IMG/VR virus record: IMGVR_UViG_3300029930_000001
Span: 10,935 to 74,934 of that record
Length of the DNA stretch: 64,000 bases
From: a virus
Lineage: Duplodnaviria > Caudoviricetes
Strand: one strand, 5' to 3'
Shown here: one piece after another, positions 4,285-63,977 of the stretch
Position numbering within the stretch: position 1 is the first letter of the stretch
Layout of the letters: each line of letters begins with the position of its first letter
The notes under the pieces: model-generated
Database searches by the model: none
The model's input: the letters and a program-made list of their open reading frames with translations, nothing else
Told to the model about the DNA's origin: nothing
Program-made: the position numbers and the translations under genes

Positions 4285-4353
4285 TGCGCTGAAGTGTTGG
4301 TACACGCTAGGCACATAGCCTAGAATCCTGGAGTTCGATTCCCAGCAGCGCCT
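4285..4353 (+). tRNA. atypical tRNA-like element, anticodon CAT
   Basis: Acceptor GCGCTG/CAGCGC, D stem GTGT/ACAC with 4-nt loop, anticodon stem CTAGG/CCTAG, TTCGATT T-loop; A33, a bulge in the T stem and a 1:72 mismatch. Confidence 0.55.
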
Positions 4354-5295: not shown

Positions 5296-5316
5296 TCATG
5301 CTTGCTTTGTGGCAAA

Positions 5317-5400
5317 TGCGACGAGCGGGACTTGAACCCGCACGATCTGACGATCAACAGATTTTAAGTCTGGGGCGTCTACCAATTCCGCCACCGTCGC
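5317..5400 (-). tRNA. trnL: tRNA-Leu(UAA), intron-less, CCA not encoded
   Basis: GCGACGG TG GCGGAATTGGTAGACGC C CCAGA CTTAAAA TCTGT long variable arm GCGGG TTCAAGT CCCGC TCGTCGC A. Confidence 0.95.
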
Positions 5401-5575
5401 AAGATGACAGGGGCGTCGAGAGCGGGGCTTCAATCCGCCTTTGTACGACATTTCACCATGAGTTGGCCCATGGCCCCTGTTCCCCTGTGGTCTGTAGAGA
5501 CAACGCTGCCATTGTCTCGTTTTAACGCTGCGCAGCGTGCTTCGCGAAAGCCCCAAAAGCATAGCGTATACAGTG

Positions 5576-53155: not shown

Positions 53156-53536
53156 ATGGCAATGATGTTTTCCATTCCAGTAGGATTAAACTACAACGGA
53201 CACGACTACATTGCGCACATGGGGCCTTTTGAGCGAAGCATGGAAAGGGACTTTGCCCTCGTAGCCAACAAGCGAGCCCTGGCCGAATGTAATGACGTGG
53301 GCAAGCTGCGAGAAGTGGCTGGCAATCTGCTGGAAGGTTGGAGCAACATGCAAGAAGCTTTCACTGCATTGATGAAAGAAAATCTTGAGCTGCGTCAAGC
53401 CATGCAAATGCAACAGCATGATCTTGATGCAGCAGAAGCGCTACTTGGTGAAGCTGGCGATGCAATCAACCGGATGTCCGCAGAACAGCAGCGATCTTCT
53501 CAAGCCAGGCGATTTCTTTGGCCGTTTGGCTCGTAA
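53156..53536 (+). CDS. hypothetical coiled-coil protein
   Basis: 126-aa ATG ORF, divergent from 52808-53125. Confidence 0.55.
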   Translation: MAMMFSIPVGLNYNGHDYIAHMGPFERSMERDFALVANKRALAECNDVGKLREVAGNLLEGWSNMQEAFTALMKENLELRQAMQMQQHDLDAAEALLGEAGDAINRMSAEQQRSSQARRFLWPFGS

Positions 53537-53831
53537 GAAGAAACACTTTCCATCCTCCCATCATGGCAAGGTTGAATTTTCTGCAGTCCCTTTCGTAGCC
53601 GCTTGCACGAACATGTCTGCCGCCGCTAAATGTTCCCCCTTGTATTTCAATGAGAGAGCGAGAAGGAAGATGTGCAAAATCTGCACGATACCGTTTTGAG
53701 CGTTTGCTTTTGGCGTAGCGTTCTTGGAAGTCGACCTCCCAAGCGGGAATGTCGCTGTACTCCCGGACCAATGGAAGGTCGGGATGGTGAGCCCGCCATA
53801 GGCCAAGGAATTGGTCTTCTAAAAGGCTCAT
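53466..53831 (-). CDS. PD-(D/E)XK endonuclease (Vsr/DUF559-like)
   Basis: YRADFA......IEIQGG..SGGRH....GY..D..K.N....GW.V. Confidence 0.8.
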   Translation of the reverse strand: MSLLEDQFLGLWRAHHPDLPLVREYSDIPAWEVDFQERYAKSKRSKRYRADFAHLPSRSLIEIQGGTFSGGRHVRASGYERDCRKFNLAMMGGWKVFLLTSQTAKEIAWLEKIAAVLRTSG

Positions 53832-53845
53832 AGTGAAATGCTAAC

Positions 53846-54268
53846 GCGCTCCTCGCGCCCTTGCCCAACCGAAACTCGCCCGTGCTCACCTAGCCCCTTA
53901 GAACCCCACCGTGCCACTGGCCTTAAATTGCGCTCCTCACGCCCTCACCAGACTCCGCCCCACCTTTGCCAGCCATAACCCACCGAGACAAACCACGCCA
54001 CTGACCAAAACTTGCACTCCTCGTGCCCCAAGCTAGGCAAACCTGTCCACTGCGAACCTTACCCCACCTCGCCATTCCCAACCACACCTCTGACCTTAAA
54101 TTGCGCTCCTCGCGCCCTCACCAATACTCGCTGCGCCACTATCAACCGCGCCATGGCACGCCGTGCCTCTGGCCATAATTTGCGCTCCTCACGCCCTTGC
54201 CCCGCCCGAGCCAGCCGCGGCTTACCTCACCAGGCCCGTCCTGAACAGACCTAACCGCACCTCCGACC
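53846..54268 (-). ncRNA. array of five GGY-NN pentamer guide-like units
   Basis: Units at 54268-54182, 54174-54103, 54095-54014, 54006-53930 and 53922-53846; each is GGYCRGW + 10-13 (GGY-like triplet + NN) + GGGCRYGAGGAGYGC, joined by 7-nt A/U linkers. Confidence 0.85.
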
Positions 54269-54276
54269 AAACGAAA

Positions 54277-54294
54277 GGCTCCCTTTCGGGAGCC
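54277..54294 (-). other. GNRA hairpin leading the array
   Basis: GGCTCCC-GAAA-GGGAGCC followed by TTTCGTTT, 28 nt after the Cas7-like stop. Confidence 0.65.
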
Positions 54295-54322
54295 CTCATA
54301 CTAAGCCGTCAAGAGCGAACCG

Positions 54323-54922
54323 TCAAGAGAAAACGCCTTCGCTCACAGCAAAGCGTCCATAACGCGGCCGCCATTCACACAATCCAATCTGGGAGCCAGC
54401 AGCTTCGGCCAGATCTTCAATCTGCTGCTTATTGAAAACAGCATCGTTAAAGACAATAGTCGCACGAGCAGACCAGCCAGTACCAAAAATCGGACGAGTG
54501 CGCATTACTTTTGCAGTGCCCACGCGAACGCCTTTGCGGAAGACAAACTTGCGGCTGTCGTACATCTCGTCAAGAGCCGTCTCATCAACTGACTCAGGCA
54601 CTCCATCGCCTTCAATCAGCAAGTGATCTTCAACGAAAAGACCGCGAGCAGCATCCTTGCCAAGTCGTGAAAGCTTTGCTGCTCCTACAAGCGATGCTTC
54701 AAAACAGTCAGAAGGAACAATGAGCTTACCTTCGTTGACGTAGAGGCCGCCGCGCCATTCAAGCTTGGCCATCATTTCATGATCGGCCTCTGTCTTTTTC
54801 CGCTTTCCAGAAATCTTTTTGATTTCTTGACTAAAAGCGTAGAACGGGTCGGCCAATTCGCCGTTGTGAACGATCAATGGGGCAATCCCCGTAATCTTGA
54901 AGCTGTAGGACTGTTGCGCCAT
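54323..54922 (-). CDS. Cas7/RAMP-like RNA-binding protein associated with the GGY-NN array
   Basis: ITGIAPLIVHN (beta-1), IVPSDCFEASL (IPGSSLKG-like), RTRPIF...W.A...F, terminal Gly-rich loop GSQIGLCEWRPRYGRF; ATG at 54922. Confidence 0.7.
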   Translation of the reverse strand: MAQQSYSFKITGIAPLIVHNGELADPFYAFSQEIKKISGKRKKTEADHEMMAKLEWRGGLYVNEGKLIVPSDCFEASLVGAAKLSRLGKDAARGLFVEDHLLIEGDGVPESVDETALDEMYDSRKFVFRKGVRVGTAKVMRTRPIFGTGWSARATIVFNDAVFNKQQIEDLAEAAGSQIGLCEWRPRYGRFAVSEGVFS

Positions 54923-55250
54923 GTTCAAAAGAACGTGAAGGACGTTGTGATTGGTGATCAACGATGACAGGCACTCCTTGAAGCTGATGTTTGCGACGGC
55001 GAACGCTGTCTGTAATCGCTTCGTGGCAGTGACGGCAGAGTGTGATCAAGTCGGAAAGACGTTCCTTCCCCAGCGGATATGGGTAATAGAACAACGGAGG
55101 ACCGCCGTATTTGTGATGGACCTCCAAGTCTTCGCAACAACCGCAAGTCTGACAGCAGTGTCCATCAACGTCAAGCCTCTGCTGGCGCTTTTCAGCCCAG
55201 ATTTCAGAGGCCATGTATTTGCTGTAGTAATCGGTGGCTGGCTTATTCAT
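54831..55250 (-). CDS. HNH endonuclease
   Basis: CQTCG...LEVHH....LG.E...DLITLC..CH; overlaps the start of the Cas7-like gene. Confidence 0.8.
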   Translation of the reverse strand: MNKPATDYYSKYMASEIWAEKRQQRLDVDGHCCQTCGCCEDLEVHHKYGGPPLFYYPYPLGKERLSDLITLCRHCHEAITDSVRRRKHQLQGVPVIVDHQSQRPSRSFEHGATVLQLQDYGDCPIDRSQRRIGRPVLRF

Positions 55251-55267
55251 GAGGGTAGATAGTAGAA

Positions 55268-55339
55268 AGGAGGGCGCAAGCCCTCCTCCCCGCCGTGCCC
55301 GACCGTGGCTAGCTGCGCCAAGGCGAAGCGGACCATGCC
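55268..55339 (-). ncRNA. solitary GGY-NN unit with its own promoter and closing hairpin
   Basis: TAAGAT -10 at 55354-55349; 10 pentamers at 55339-55290; AGGAGGGC-TTGC-GCCCTCCT hairpin. Confidence 0.65.
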
Positions 55340-55351
55340 GTTATCGGTATC

Positions 55352-55939
55352 TTACCCCACTCGGGGCAATGTGGCAACTGCGCCTTGGTTTTGGTAGATG
55401 CCATTTCCGTAACCATGTGCCGAGTCCGAACTAAGTTGGACAAACATCACTTGAACAATTCCTTCAAAGCAATAAACTTTAACTGGAAAAGCCAGGGGAT
55501 TGACAATACAAATAGTAAGGTGACCAGACCAACCAGGCTCAATTGGCGTGACGTTAATGATGGTCCCTTGACGCGCATAAGTGGATTTCCCGTCGCAAAT
55601 GCCCATAACGTTTGGGGGCATTGTGATGAGCTCCAAGCTTACGCCAAGCGCGTAGGAAAATGGGGGCAGGATGAAGAAAGTACTGCCAAGCTCCTCAATG
55701 GGAGTGGCCTTGTACATTAGCTCCTTATTGAAAGCCTTGACATCCAGGGCTTCCACTTCCTTGGAATTGTTAATGACCATAAAATCGTCTGGGGAAAGAC
55801 GAAGGTCATAACCAGCATGAGAAAGTCCATAAGACAATGCTTTGGTGCCATTGTCTAGTTCTCTAGTTTTTTCTCCAACGAAAGGGAAAAGGATGTCGTT
55901 TTCTGCAAGAACAGTGATTTCCTTGTCGTTAAGAAGCAT
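55352..55939 (-). CDS. dcd: dCTP deaminase
   Basis: LSYGLS..GYDLRL, GKSTYAR.G, TPIEPGWSG.LT, Y...YQNQ. Confidence 0.9.
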   Translation of the reverse strand: MLLNDKEITVLAENDILFPFVGEKTRELDNGTKALSYGLSHAGYDLRLSPDDFMVINNSKEVEALDVKAFNKELMYKATPIEELGSTFFILPPFSYALGVSLELITMPPNVMGICDGKSTYARQGTIINVTPIEPGWSGHLTICIVNPLAFPVKVYCFEGIVQVMFVQLSSDSAHGYGNGIYQNQGAVATLPRVG

Positions 55940-63227: not shown

Positions 63228-63977
63228 ATGGCACGCCCTGAAATTGAATTTACCTCCCCAGATGAAGAGAAGGAATATGCAGCAAAGGCATTGAAGAAAG
63301 CCGGCATTACCGAGAATCAGTTTGAAACCATTCGTGAGATGAAAGTGAATGGTGGAGTGGGGGCGGCTGGTTATGGCAAGGAAATGCTTGGTCTTAGGCG
63401 ATGGATGGTGCAGGAATTATTGGCTGCTTCAATGAGCAATCGTCAGATTGCGAATGTTCTAAAGCTAAGCAAGGAAACAGTTAATAGTGACAGGAAGTTC
63501 AATCGTTTGTTATACACGGAAGAAATCTTGAAGAATCAAGATACACACCGTGCAAGACTGTTGAAAGAGCAAATGGACCTTAAGGACCTGGCTCTTGATA
63601 GTTTTGAACGTAGCAAGAAAAAGAAGACGATCACCATTATGGATGGCGATGGTGATGGGAAAGAAATCGTCAAGATGGAAGAAAGTGCTGGCGATCCATC
63701 GTTTCTTAACGTGGCGAAGAATAGCTTGGTTGAACAGGCGAAGCTTCTTGGCTTAAACGAACAACGGCCCGTGGAAGCGCAGGATACGTCCTATCGCAAA
63801 TTCCTGCAGGATCTTTCCTCCACCATTGAAAAAGAAAAACAAGCTAAAGCCACTGAAGAACGTCGTGATAATTCCCTGCCTGCTATTGCCACTGCCATCA
63901 GCTTTGATGATGAACCAGAACAGGAGCCTCTCCCCGACACGATGCCTTTACGAACAATTAATGAAGAGGACTATTGA
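63228..63977 (+). CDS. HTH protein, possible terminase small subunit
   Basis: HTH SNRQIANVLKLSKETVNSD, helical oligomerisation region, GDPSFL..AK......AKLLGL. Confidence 0.5.
   Translation: MARPEIEFTSPDEEKEYAAKALKKAGITENQFETIREMKVNGGVGAAGYGKEMLGLRRWMVQELLAASMSNRQIANVLKLSKETVNSDRKFNRLLYTEEILKNQDTHRARLLKEQMDLKDLALDSFERSKKKKTITIMDGDGDGKEIVKMEESAGDPSFLNVAKNSLVEQAKLLGLNEQRPVEAQDTSYRKFLQDLSSTIEKEKQAKATEERRDNSLPAIATAISFDDEPEQEPLPDTMPLRTINEEDY

What the first reader, a model, noticed from the sequence alone, without database searches (positions are those of the whole stretch)
53846..54922. Cas7/RAMP-like gene followed by an array of GGY-NN pentamer RNAs: candidate phage RNA-guided system with a non-contiguous code
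Seen: on the minus strand, after the stop of a 199-aa protein and a GAAA hairpin, come five units with the same grammar: handle GGYC(A/G)G(A/T), then 13/10/12/11/11 pentamers made of a mostly GGY triplet plus a variable dinucleotide, then GGGCRYGAGGAGYGC, then a 7-nt A/U linker. The 3' motif folds as a 4-bp stem around a GAGGA loop and covaries: unit 3 has an A-U pair where the others have G-C, and the closing pair alternates C-G and U-G. That indicates selection on RNA structure. The NN strings are U1 GC TA CT CA CG CT GA AA GC TG CG GG AA; U2 AC GT AT GC TG GT GC GA TT GA; U3 GT TG AT GA GG AA TC GT CA TT TA TG; U4 GT TT TC GG AT TG AA GG GG CT GA; U5 AC GG TC GG TA GA CG GA TC TG AA. Established: the protein shows RAMP/Cas7 hallmarks (beta-1 PL.H, an IPGSS-like motif, a terminal Gly-rich loop), and Cas7 polymerises along RNA with a fixed nucleotide period. 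Inference: one subunit binds each pentamer by its GGY and presents NN for pairing, so each unit is a programmable guide, probably against competing phages. No cas1/2/5/6/8 genes are present. This matches my recollection of recently reported VIPR (viral interference programmable repeat) systems. I cannot verify that here, so the class may already be described even if this instance is not.
Basis: partly seen in the sequence, partly recalled or inferred. Interest (0 to 1): 0.96.

Follow-up and report, generated by a model that had tools for sequence, protein, structure and literature searches.

The report
Cyanophage VIPR system aimed at kin
This is a genuine example of the recently described VIPR RNA-guided system, in a freshwater cyanophage, and two of its six guide RNAs spell conserved motifs of the two genes that flank the same locus in rival sister phages, so it is a known kind of system caught in a kin-against-kin arms race.

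Summary
On the minus strand a 199-aa protein is followed by five units: a 7-nt handle, 13/10/12/11/11 GGY-NN pentamers and a 15-nt hairpin tail. The protein matches the solved SUSP1 Vipr protein (E 3e-27) and has a Cas7/Csm3 fold.

This is a VIPR system, a class published in three 2026 preprints. This scan has already noted it on other DNA (274 notes in at least 223 genomes).

- A sixth guide (U0) with its own promoter lies upstream.
- An HNH gene overlaps the vipr start. It is the conserved partner in 59 of 80 related loci.
- HNH + vipr + guides form a 1.5-kb cassette inserted between dcd and a Vsr-like nuclease gene of an S-CBS4-like cyanosiphovirus.
- By the published one-base-skip rule, U0 matches a dcd motif of sister phages 20/20 (own allele 14/20).
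- U5 matches their Vsr-like gene 20/22 (own allele 14/22).
- The sisters' guides match this phage's alleles in return (16/16, 19/20, 17/18).
- A vipr-less sister carries one solo guide aimed at the HNH active site.

No targets were found for U1-U4. Whether the system silences or cuts its targets is open.

The parts
55352..55939 (-). dcd (dCTP deaminase), the gene on the upstream flank of the cassette. It carries the motif that the sisters' U0 guides match.
   Evidence: phrog_1663, E 3.5e-43. Site 55536-55564 is matched 16/16 to 19/20 by the relatives' U0 guides.
55349..55377 (-). Sigma-70-like promoter for U0 (TTGCCA-17-TAAGAT); the -10 element overlaps the dcd stop codon.
   Evidence: Consensus scan. 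TAAGMT is kept in all relatives. Function is inferred.
55290..55339 (-). vrRNA U0: 10 pentamers with NN = AT CC TC TT GC TA AC CG AC GG.
   Evidence: One-base-skip match 20/20 to the dcd of 13 IMG/VR contigs.
55263..55287 (-). 8-bp GC hairpin (AGGAGGGC-TTGC-GCCCTCCT) plus UUUCU: the 3' end or terminator of U0.
   Evidence: An equivalent hairpin is present in all five relatives.
54831..55250 (-). HNH nuclease gene (139 aa), the candidate vap. It overlaps the vipr start by 92 nt.
   Evidence: Pfam HNH (weak) and PHROG HNH families. A homologous ORF lies directly upstream of vipr in 59 of 80 loci. C33, C36, H45, H46, C72 and H76 are invariant. Site 55093-55124 is matched 18/22 by the solo guide of a vipr-less sister.
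54323..54922 (-). vipr (199 aa), a RAMP/Cas7-like filament protein.
   Evidence: PDB 36pp 'SUSP1 Vipr protein', E 3.4e-27. phrog_4652. AF2 pLDDT 96.4 and Foldseek Csm3 hits at probability 1.0. 2465 family clusters.
54298..54326 (-). Sigma-70-like promoter for the array (TTGACG-17-TAGTAT); the -35 element overlaps the vipr stop codon.
   Evidence: Both hexamers are kept in relatives while the spacer varies. Function is inferred.
54277..54295 (-). GC hairpin with a GAAA loop followed by UUUCGUUU, a likely terminator of the HNH-vipr message. The predicted array start site falls inside its 5' arm.
   Evidence: The reading as a terminator is an inference.
54182..54268 (-). vrRNA U1 (13 pentamers).
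   Evidence: No target found.
54103..54174 (-). vrRNA U2 (10 pentamers).
   Evidence: No credible target found.
54014..54095 (-). vrRNA U3 (12 pentamers); its tail carries the A-U covariant pair.
   Evidence: No target found.
53930..54006 (-). vrRNA U4 (11 pentamers).
   Evidence: No target found.
53846..53922 (-). vrRNA U5 (11 pentamers). It is aimed at the TGSGYERDAR motif of the sisters' Vsr-like gene.
   Evidence: 20/22 in G002, G006, G007, G008, L108 and L118; 19/22 in S-CBS4; 14/22 at the same site of its own allele.
53466..53831 (-). Vsr/DUF559-like PD-(D/E)XK nuclease gene (121 aa) on the downstream flank of the cassette. It is itself matched by the sisters' last guides at 53626-53657 and 53518-53546.
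   Evidence: phrog_503. tblastn hits to DUF559 proteins. AF2 pLDDT 87.8; Foldseek gives I-Bth0305I and Vsr at probability 0.99 but E about 0.01. Guide matches 17/18, 18/22 and 18/20.

Best explanation
The locus is a complete VIPR system on a 75-kb freshwater cyanosiphovirus related to Synechococcus phage S-CBS4. A 1.5-kb cassette sits exactly between dcd and a Vsr-like nuclease gene, which abut each other in cassette-free sisters. The cassette holds guide U0 with its own promoter and terminator, an HNH gene, vipr, and a five-guide array with its own promoter.

By homology with the solved SUSP1 complex, Vipr subunits polymerise on each guide, one per pentamer. Each subunit grips GGY and exposes NN. 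The exposed dinucleotides pair with double-stranded DNA that reads NN-x-NN-x, so the skipped base is the codon's wobble position. The short 3' hairpin takes the place of the SUSP1 pseudoknot tail.

U0 and U5 are aimed at conserved motifs of the dcd and Vsr-like genes of sister phages that compete for the same host. This phage's own alleles are recoded at those motifs and escape. Sister phages aim their guides back at this phage's alleles.

Shown here: the anatomy, the homology, the family-wide link of vipr with arrays and with HNH, and the code matches.

Inferred: transcription, processing at the A/U linkers, filament assembly, and the outcome at the target. That outcome could be silencing as published for type II, or cutting by HNH.
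For: Vipr homology:
- PDB 36pp, E 3.4e-27 over residues 7-194.
- SUSP1 contact residues H17, K33, R138, W178 and R179 are identical, and D177 is E here (alignment read).
- Csm3 fold.

Guide grammar and statistics. Tail covariation.

Family-wide links:
- 69 of 80 homologous loci carry same-strand arrays.
- 59 of 80 carry the HNH partner.

Cassette insertion: compared with S-CBS4 and five other sisters.

Targets:
- 37 guide-genome pairs match at 90% or more, against 0.07 expected from shuffled guides.
- All of these fall in dcd or the Vsr-like gene. The solo guide's matches in HNH are the 18-20/22 matches listed in the full report.
- Every site is in codon phase, with the wobble base skipped and varying among the matched targets.
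- The U0 code has 13 exact matches in IMG/VR, all in dcd.

Self matches: 70% or less over the whole genome for this phage's own guides.

Array variation: unit number varies from 3 to 6 among relatives. A natural variant lacking U3-U5 exists.
Against: - There are no expression or binding data for this system. The only RNA-library contigs are from relatives and may be DNA carry-over.
- 35% of pentamers are not exact GGY.
- Four of the six guides have no identified target.
- dCTP deaminase is a diffusible enzyme, so silencing a co-infecting rival's copy would be complemented in trans. The benefit of that target is therefore not obvious under pure silencing.
- Some relatives' guides match their own alleles at 80-83%. 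The activity of partial matches is unknown.
- The genomes are metagenomic, so co-infection is inferred only from co-occurrence of variants in the same runs.
Confidence: 0.88

Rival explanations
1. RNA-guided cutting and homing. The Vipr-guide filament recruits the HNH nuclease. The rival genome is cut on both sides of the empty insertion site, in dcd and in the Vsr-like gene. Recombinational repair from the cassette-bearing genome then copies the cassette, with its linked resistant alleles, into the rival. This would be localized marker exclusion or a gene drive rather than gene silencing.
For: - HNH is the conserved, overlapping partner of vipr across this clade, and its metal and catalytic residues are invariant.
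- The two identified targets are exactly the two genes flanking the cassette.
- The target products (dcd at least) act in trans, so a cis-acting effect on the rival DNA makes more sense.
- Synonymous divergence between window and G001 is 0.13 for HNH and 0.40 for vipr, but saturated for dcd (pS 0.79) and 1.4 for thyX. This shows recent exchange of the cassette with a breakpoint at the U0/HNH border. Contigs in other runs join a window-like HNH to a G001-type U0.
- Remnants of another Vsr-like allele lie behind the gene in G003-G005.
- The discovery preprint proposes target destruction for VIPR types that have nuclease partners.
Against: - No cleavage has been shown for any VIPR, and the studied systems silence.
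- HNH genes are common free-standing selfish genes in these phages. S-CBS4 has several, and a different HNH sits at the same site in G006. The association could therefore have another reason.
- For G003-G005 the cassette is as diverged as its flanks.
- Low divergence of vipr can also reflect ordinary recombination.
Confidence: 0.2
2. Self-regulation. The guides tune expression of the phage's own neighbouring genes (dcd, the Vsr-like gene and the thyX operon downstream) through partial matches.
For: - The array lies in the leader of the Vsr-like-thyX operon.
- Some relatives' guides match their own alleles at 80-83%.
Against: - This phage's own best matches are 14/20 and 14/22 at the homologous sites, no better than background.
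- The best matches are always foreign alleles, several of them perfect.
- The preprints report no self-targeting at 80% or more.
Confidence: 0.04
3. The main purpose lies elsewhere: anti-satellite, anti-prophage or anti-host action through U1-U4. The kin matches of U0 and U5 would then be a side show.
For: - Four of six guides have no kin target in two complete sister genomes or in S-CBS4.
- Published SUSP1 and P. fulva guides mostly hit satellites and prophages.
Against: - No such target was found.
- No exact 10-dinucleotide match exists in IMG/VR for U1-U4.
- The U0 code has no exact match in any cyanobacterial species genome. Host genomes could not be searched with mismatches allowed.
Confidence: 0.3

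Closest known systems
VIPR systems, with type II of Escherichia phage SUSP1 as the experimental exemplar (bioRxiv 10.64898/2026.04.26.720920 and 10.64898/2026.04.26.720927)
   Same: - A homologous Vipr protein with conserved RNA-contact residues.
- Guides of 10-13 GGY-NN pentamers with a constant structured 3' tail.
- One guide upstream plus an array downstream of the genes.
- The one-base-skip, wobble-aligned target code.
- Phage-borne and aimed at competing mobile elements.
   Different: - Only 32% protein identity.
- The tail is a 15-nt, 4-bp hairpin instead of a pseudoknot of about 40 nt.
- A constant 7-nt 5' handle.
- The partner gene is an HNH nuclease upstream of and overlapping vipr, not the DNA-binding vap1.
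- The host is a picocyanobacterium.
- The identified targets are core genes of sister phages, not a satellite.
VIPR-null phages with solo vrRNAs that target relatives' vipr or vrRNAs (bioRxiv 10.64898/2026.10.15.759431)
   Same: - Kin-against-kin targeting.
- Self-match lower than non-self match.
- Wobble-aligned sites in catalytic motifs.
- The sister phage G006 is such a vipr-less carrier, with one solo guide bearing this clade's tail.
   Different: - Here the VIPR-positive phages themselves target each other, reciprocally.
- The sites are in the two genes flanking the cassette (dcd and the Vsr-like gene).
- The solo guide targets the HNH partner's active site rather than vipr.
Class 1 CRISPR backbone proteins (Cas7/Csm3)
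   Same: RRM core, thumb and glycine-rich loop fold. Polymerisation along a guide with a fixed period. Best structural matches.
   Different: About 10-13% identity. No CRISPR repeats, spacers, or cas genes in the immediate neighbourhood. Period of 5 nt with only 2 nt read per subunit. Double-stranded DNA recognised with a skipped base.
Free-standing homing endonucleases and localized marker exclusion in T-even phages (from general knowledge, not checked in papers here)
   Same: A nuclease gene in a small cassette between conserved genes. Sister genomes with and without it. Mosaic divergence around it. Own flanks differ at the attacked sites.
   Different: Specificity here would come from exchangeable guide RNAs rather than from the protein. 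Cutting is not shown.

Membership tests
VIPR system | Vipr protein: a minimal RAMP homologue with RRM core, thumb and G-loop. | tested here: met
   PDB 36pp SUSP1 Vipr, E 3.4e-27. AF2 pLDDT 96.4 and Csm3 matches at probability 1.0. H19, K35, R143, W184 and R185 equal the SUSP1 contact residues; E183 stands for D177.
VIPR system | vrRNA of tandem GGY-NN (YNNGG) pentamers next to vipr: at least 4 units, typically 9-16. | tested here: met
   Six guides of 10-13 units. 37/57 exact GGY in phase against a shuffle maximum of 15.
VIPR system | A constant, structured 3' tail after the repeat tract. | tested here: met
   GGGCRYGARRARYGC hairpin in 26 tails with compensatory changes and no broken pair. 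It is a simple hairpin, not the SUSP1 pseudoknot. U0 instead ends in a terminator-like hairpin.
VIPR system | NN specifies targets by the one-base-skip rule, aligned to codons. | tested here: met
   U0 matches 20/20 in 13 IMG/VR dcd genes. U5 matches 20/22. All sites are in codon phase. Not met for U1-U4, for which no target was found.
VIPR system | No self-targeting at 80% NN match or more. | tested here: met
   The best own-genome match of the window's guides is 70% or less. Some relatives' guides reach 80-83% on their own alleles.
VIPR system | An accessory (vap) gene linked to vipr. | tested here: met
   An HNH ORF lies directly upstream of or overlapping vipr in 59 of 80 loci of the clade. 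A role in the system is not tested.
VIPR system | vrRNAs are expressed and co-purify with Vipr; the complex binds DNA. | not testable with these tools
   Only contigs from one RNA library of relatives are available, which cannot show transcription.
VIPR type II (SUSP1 / P. fulva clade) | vap1-type DNA-binding partner and SUSP1-like Vipr phylogeny. | tested here: not met
   The partner is an HNH nuclease and identity to SUSP1 Vipr is 32%. The authors' seven-type tables were not available as text, so the type cannot be named. A type with an HNH partner is mentioned in the legend of fig. S21.
CRISPR-Cas class 1 | CRISPR repeat-spacer array plus cas genes (Cas5/6/8/10, Cas1/2). | tested here: not met
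   The neighbours are dcd, HNH, the Vsr-like gene, thyX and an exonuclease. The only repeat array is the pentamer array. A full cas-gene search of the genome was not run.

The most novel reading that the evidence does not exclude
The HNH-vipr-guide cassette is an RNA-programmed selfish haplotype. Its outermost guides direct attack on the two genes that flank its own insertion site in sister phages, by HNH cutting or by a cis-acting block. Its own flanking alleles are recoded to be immune. In mixed infections the cassette and its linked alleles would then be copied into, or would exclude, the rival genome. That would be a guide-RNA version of homing-endonuclease marker exclusion.
Probability: 0.2. 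Interest if true: 0.85.

Novelty: new member of a known kind. Interest (0 to 1): 0.45.

Why it matters
The class is published, so this instance adds no new principle. It does offer a compact natural test bed.

- The family of freshwater and estuarine cyanosiphoviruses has a cultured relative, S-CBS4 on Synechococcus CB0101.
- At one locus the family exists in three states: empty, full VIPR cassette, and vipr-less with a solo guide.
- The guides of each state read the conserved motifs of the others' alleles.
- This makes guide-target co-evolution directly readable from metagenomes.
- It links a nuclease partner to VIPR in a virulent-type phage.
- It raises a testable question: does VIPR only silence, or can it also drive exclusion or conversion of rival genomes?

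Tried and rejected
- Tandem Repeats Finder, Pfam on the 199-aa protein and Rfam found nothing.
- Megablast of the region against cultured phages found nothing.
- Exact one-base-skip scans of IMG/VR gave 0 matches each. The 3'-proximal 10 dinucleotides of U1, U3 and U4, the whole of U2, and the 5' 10 dinucleotides of U1 were tried.
- The metagenome scan for U2 gave one hit, on a 2.6-kb contig. It lies out of codon phase inside a membrane-protein gene. About one chance hit is expected, so it was rejected.
- Protein-level scans of U0-U5 against 120 Vsr-like and 265 Vipr homologues recovered only the U5 site.
- Host-directed reading of U0: 32 exact matches in 185,579 species genomes, none cyanobacterial. 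They are in Zixibacteria, Blastocatellia, Ignavibacteriales and others, presumably their dcd genes; the hit loci were not opened. No cyanobacterial handle was obtained, so a mismatch-tolerant host search could not be run.
- Complex prediction of Vipr with HNH gave no verdict.
- RNA evidence: one metatranscriptome holds contigs of relatives (an HNH-U0 joint and a solo-guide-vsr joint). Contigs cannot show transcription.
- The S-CBS4 gene annotated 'Rnase E' has a homologue here (window 63228-63914). Pfam gives it only weak helix-turn-helix hits, so it was dropped as a candidate processing enzyme.
- An isolated copy of the tail motif in G007 and G008 has no pentamers before it and is not a guide.
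- Matches of 80-86%, for example to S-CBS4, are reported but not relied on. An earlier check in this scan found that 80% matches can be tolerated.
Full report
**1. The observation**

- The 199-aa ORF runs 54922..54323 and is followed by a GC hairpin with a GAAA loop at 54295..54277.
- Five units follow: U1 54268-54182, U2 54174-54103, U3 54095-54014, U4 54006-53930, U5 53922-53846.
- Each unit has a 7-nt handle GGYCRGW, then 13/10/12/11/11 pentamers, then the tail GGGCRYGAGGAGYGC.
- A/U-rich 7-nt linkers separate the units.

The periodicity is far beyond chance.
- 37 of 57 pentamers are exact GGY in phase. Shuffles give a mean of 7.5 and a maximum of 15 with the best phase taken.
- Positions 1-3 are G 93%, G 74% and Y 84%. 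Positions 4-5 are mixed, with all four bases present.
- In the whole genome such tracts occur only at this locus.

Tandem Repeats Finder and Rfam see nothing.

**2. What the protein is**

- Pfam has no model for it. PHROGs files it in phrog_4652, function unknown.
- Against PDB sequences it matches chain 36pp_D, 'SUSP1 Vipr protein', at E 3.4e-27 over residues 7-194.
- I counted along that alignment against the contacts reported in the cryo-EM preprint.
  - SUSP1 H17, K33, R138, W178 and R179 correspond to H19, K35, R143, W184 and R185 here.
  - D177 is E183.
  - E71/M72 are D72/C73.
- An AlphaFold model built from 61 homologues has pLDDT 96.4.
- Its best PDB fold matches are Csm3/Cas7 subunits of type III-A and type VII complexes: probability 1.0, TM about 0.5, 10-13% identity.
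- The family is large: 2465 clusters at 50% identity with E of 0.001 or better.

**3. The class is published**

[quoted passage not shown] They report:
- a Vipr RAMP protein;
- vrRNAs of 9-16 YNNGG repeats with a constant 3' tail;
- recognition of double-stranded DNA by the NN dinucleotides with one skipped base per unit, usually the codon wobble;
- transcriptional silencing of satellites, prophages and rival phages;
- seven types with accessory vap genes, some of them nucleases;
- vipr-less phages with solo guides aimed at relatives' vipr.

This scan has also met VIPR many times before on other DNA: 274 notes in at least 223 genomes.

**4. The genome and the cassette**

The window is part of a 74,934-bp IMG/VR virus record that CheckV rates 100% complete.
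- It encodes terminase, portal, protease, capsid, ribonucleotide reductase, ThyX, dCTP deaminase, exonuclease, Sak-like annealing protein and primase-helicase.
- Its major capsid protein is 85.5% identical to that of Synechococcus phage S-CBS4.
- The DNA comes from freshwater metagenomes.

Gene order differs between cassette-bearing and cassette-free relatives.
- Five IMG/VR relatives have Vipr 88-98% identical. All share the order dcd - U0 - HNH - vipr - array - Vsr-like gene - p105 - thyX.
- S-CBS4 and five other sister contigs have dcd followed after 4 nt by the start codon of the Vsr-like gene. They have no HNH, vipr or pentamers.
- The system is therefore a 1.5-kb cassette inserted between two abutting core genes.

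The 121-aa downstream gene has these assignments:
- phrog_503;
- labelled very-short-patch-repair endonuclease by JGI;
- it hits DUF559 proteins;
- its model (pLDDT 87.8) resembles the homing endonuclease I-Bth0305I catalytic domain and E. coli Vsr, at probability 0.99 but E only about 0.01.

**5. Parts the finding did not include**

The sixth guide, U0:
- It lies between dcd and HNH at 55339..55290 and has 10 pentamers.
- An 8-bp GC hairpin and UUUCU follow it.
- A promoter-like TTGCCA-17-TAAGAT precedes it, overlapping the dcd stop codon.

The array promoter:
- A second promoter-like site, TTGACG-17-TAGTAT, overlaps the vipr stop codon. Both hexamers are kept in relatives although the spacer differs.
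- Its -10 element ends 2 nt before the post-vipr hairpin. A transcript starting about 7 nt downstream would lack most of the hairpin's 5' arm.
- I infer that the hairpin terminates the HNH-vipr message but not the array transcript.

The HNH gene:
- The 139-aa HNH gene (55250..54831) overlaps vipr by 92 nt.
- An HNH of this family sits directly upstream of, and usually overlapping, vipr in 59 of 80 IMG/VR loci. These include Viprs only 35-47% identical.
- C33, C36, H45, H46, C72 and H76 are invariant.
- It is the clade's conserved partner, a vap in the preprints' terms.

**6.

- 69 of 80 homologous loci carry phased GGY-NN tracts on the vipr strand directly downstream, and some also upstream.
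- In the close relatives the arrays have 3-6 units with the same handle and tail but mostly unrelated NN strings.
- A DNA contig in another run joins the U2 tail to the U5 tail. This is a natural variant without U3-U5.
- The tail stem shows G-C/A-U and U-G/C-G/U-A alternatives and no broken pair in 26 tails.
- For five pairs of clearly orthologous guides the differences are GG 6.6%, Y 9.4% and NN 11.3%. In the relatives' U0 guides the NN positions are better kept than the scaffold.
- NN is therefore hypervariable between units but conserved within a guide lineage, as expected if each guide tracks a target.

**7. Targets**

I applied the published scoring: NN joined by one wildcard, both strands, no seed.

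This phage's own genome has no match above 70%.

I parsed 31 guides from the window, five relatives and one solo-guide phage. Against ten sister genomes (427 kb) they give:
- 37 guide-genome pairs at 90% or more, against 0.07 expected from shuffled guides;
- 52 pairs at 85% or more, against 0.6 expected.

The genomes are related, so the independent evidence is seven distinct sites. All seven lie in the genes at or next to the cassette, and all are in codon phase with the wobble base skipped.

| Guide | Target motif | Match to foreign alleles | Match to own allele |
|---|---|---|---|
| Window U0 | dcd, PVRVYANEG | 20/20 in G001, G006, G007, G008 and others; 19/20 in G003/G004 | 14/20 (own allele reads PVKVYCFEG) |
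| Relatives' U0 | window's dcd, IINVTPIEP (55536-55564) | 16/16, 19/20, 19/20, 18/20, 18/20 | 75-81% (own alleles read ILNVCPIEP) |
| Window U5 | Vsr-like gene, TGSGYERDAR | 20/22 in six sisters; 19/22 in S-CBS4 | 14/22 |
| G001's version of that guide | same motif | 21/22 | 13/22 at the same site |
| Last guide of G005 | Vsr-like catalytic IEIQGGTF | 18/18 in the cassette-free sisters; 17/18 in the window | 15/18 |
| Last guides of G003/G004 | Vsr-like gene, VFLLTTQTA | 19/20 in G001/G002; 18/20 in the window | 15-16/20 |

The last guide of G002 also reads the Vsr-like gene, at a site starting two codons upstream of the IEIQGGTF site. It matches 19/22 in G001, G006, G007 and G008 and 18/22 in the window, against 17/22 on its own allele.

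Further points on the targets:
- The exact U0 code occurs in 13 IMG/VR contigs, all inside dcd genes. Five are cassette-free sisters and six are distant phages whose dcd is only 35-46% identical. The site is thus a widely conserved motif.
- Wobble bases differ among these targets while the read positions do not.
- In 185,579 species genomes the code occurs 32 times, never in a cyanobacterium.

The sister G006 is a special case.
- It is a complete 74.5-kb genome with no vipr.
- At the same site it carries a different 267-aa HNH gene and a single guide with this clade's tail.
- That guide reads the HNH active-site motif EVHHKYGGPP of the cassette: 20/22 in G005, 19/22 in G003/G004, 18/22 in the window at 55093-55124.

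**8. What remains unknown**

U1-U4 have no match of 80% or more in S-CBS4, in two complete sister genomes or in the other contigs. They have no exact 10-dinucleotide match in IMG/VR. The single metagenome match of U2 is out of frame in an unrelated gene and is taken as chance. Host genomes could not be searched with mismatches.

**9. How it most likely works**

Steps shown by homology with the solved system:
- Vipr polymerises on the pentamers, one subunit each.
- It holds GGY and presents NN.
- The filament pairs with NN-x-NN-x DNA.

Steps inferred from this sequence:
- Two promoters drive the guides, a terminator follows U0, and the array is processed in the A/U-rich linkers by an unknown nuclease.
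- The short hairpin tail caps the 3' end, where R-loop formation starts in SUSP1.

Biological reading:
- The outermost guides attack the alleles of the two flanking genes in sister phages. The linked own alleles are recoded in those motifs. The sisters do the same in return.
- Silencing is the published activity. However, dCTP deaminase acts in trans, which makes pure silencing of a co-infecting rival a weak weapon.
- The partner here is a nuclease. A cis-acting outcome, cutting or a block on the rival DNA that may lead to conversion of the region, is therefore a serious alternative.

Evidence on exchange of the cassette:
- Synonymous divergence between window and G001 is 0.13 for HNH and 0.40 for vipr.
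- It is saturated in dcd (pS 0.79) and 1.4 in thyX.
- The cassette has therefore been exchanged recently, with a breakpoint at the U0/HNH border.
- For G003-G005 the cassette is as old as its flanks.

**10. Verdict**

The class is already known. This is a new member with an HNH partner and a simple hairpin tail. Its informative feature is the reciprocal targeting of flanking genes among sister cyanophages.

Noticed in passing
L113:8500-9480 (= G006, IMGVR_UViG_3300035703_000061): A complete 74.5-kb sister phage without vipr. Between dcd and the Vsr-like gene it carries a different 267-aa HNH gene plus one solo guide with this clade's tail. That guide's code reads the HNH active-site motif of the VIPR cassette.
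   Followed up: yes
G003:C1:2505-2567, G004:C1:7483-7545, G005:C1:6798-6983: Just behind the divergent Vsr-like gene of three relatives lies a short remnant 95% identical to the C-terminal 21 codons of the window-type allele. It looks like a scar of allele replacement at a guide-targeted gene.
   Followed up: partly
window 53863-54121: A DNA contig in a freshwater-sediment run joins the U2 tail to the U5 tail with otherwise identical sequence. This is a natural array variant lacking U3-U5. Other runs hold contigs that join a window-like HNH to the G001-type U0.
   Followed up: partly
L023:4001-4342 (S-CBS4, NC_016766 54053-54391, minus strand): The S-CBS4 homologue of the Vsr-like gene (70% identity) is not annotated. 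The record instead annotates gp072 on the opposite strand, partly overlapping it.
   Followed up: no
G007:C1:~20875 (minus) and G008:C1:~6303 (plus): An exact copy of the 15-nt tail motif GGGCGCGAGGAGCGC sits in apparently coding sequence of two cassette-free sisters, with no pentamers before it. About 0.01 such hits are expected by chance. Its meaning is unknown.
   Followed up: partly
window 54831-54922: The HNH reading frame runs 92 nt into vipr. Its C-terminal tail keeps a motif (AQR..GRP, Q129 nearly invariant) across distant members, so the overlap is probably translated in both frames.
   Followed up: partly
window 54268-53846, first 7 nt of each unit: The handle GGYCRGW reads as one pentamer with a constant NN (CA or CG) plus two extra bases that shift the register. 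Its role is unknown (5' cap, processing mark or first-subunit site).
   Followed up: no
window 4285-4353 and 5316-5401: The phage carries tRNA-Met (CAT) and tRNA-Leu (TAA) genes.
   Followed up: no
window 63228-63914: This is the homologue (54% identity) of the S-CBS4 gene annotated 'Rnase E'. Pfam gives only weak helix-turn-helix hits, so that annotation is doubtful.
   Followed up: partly
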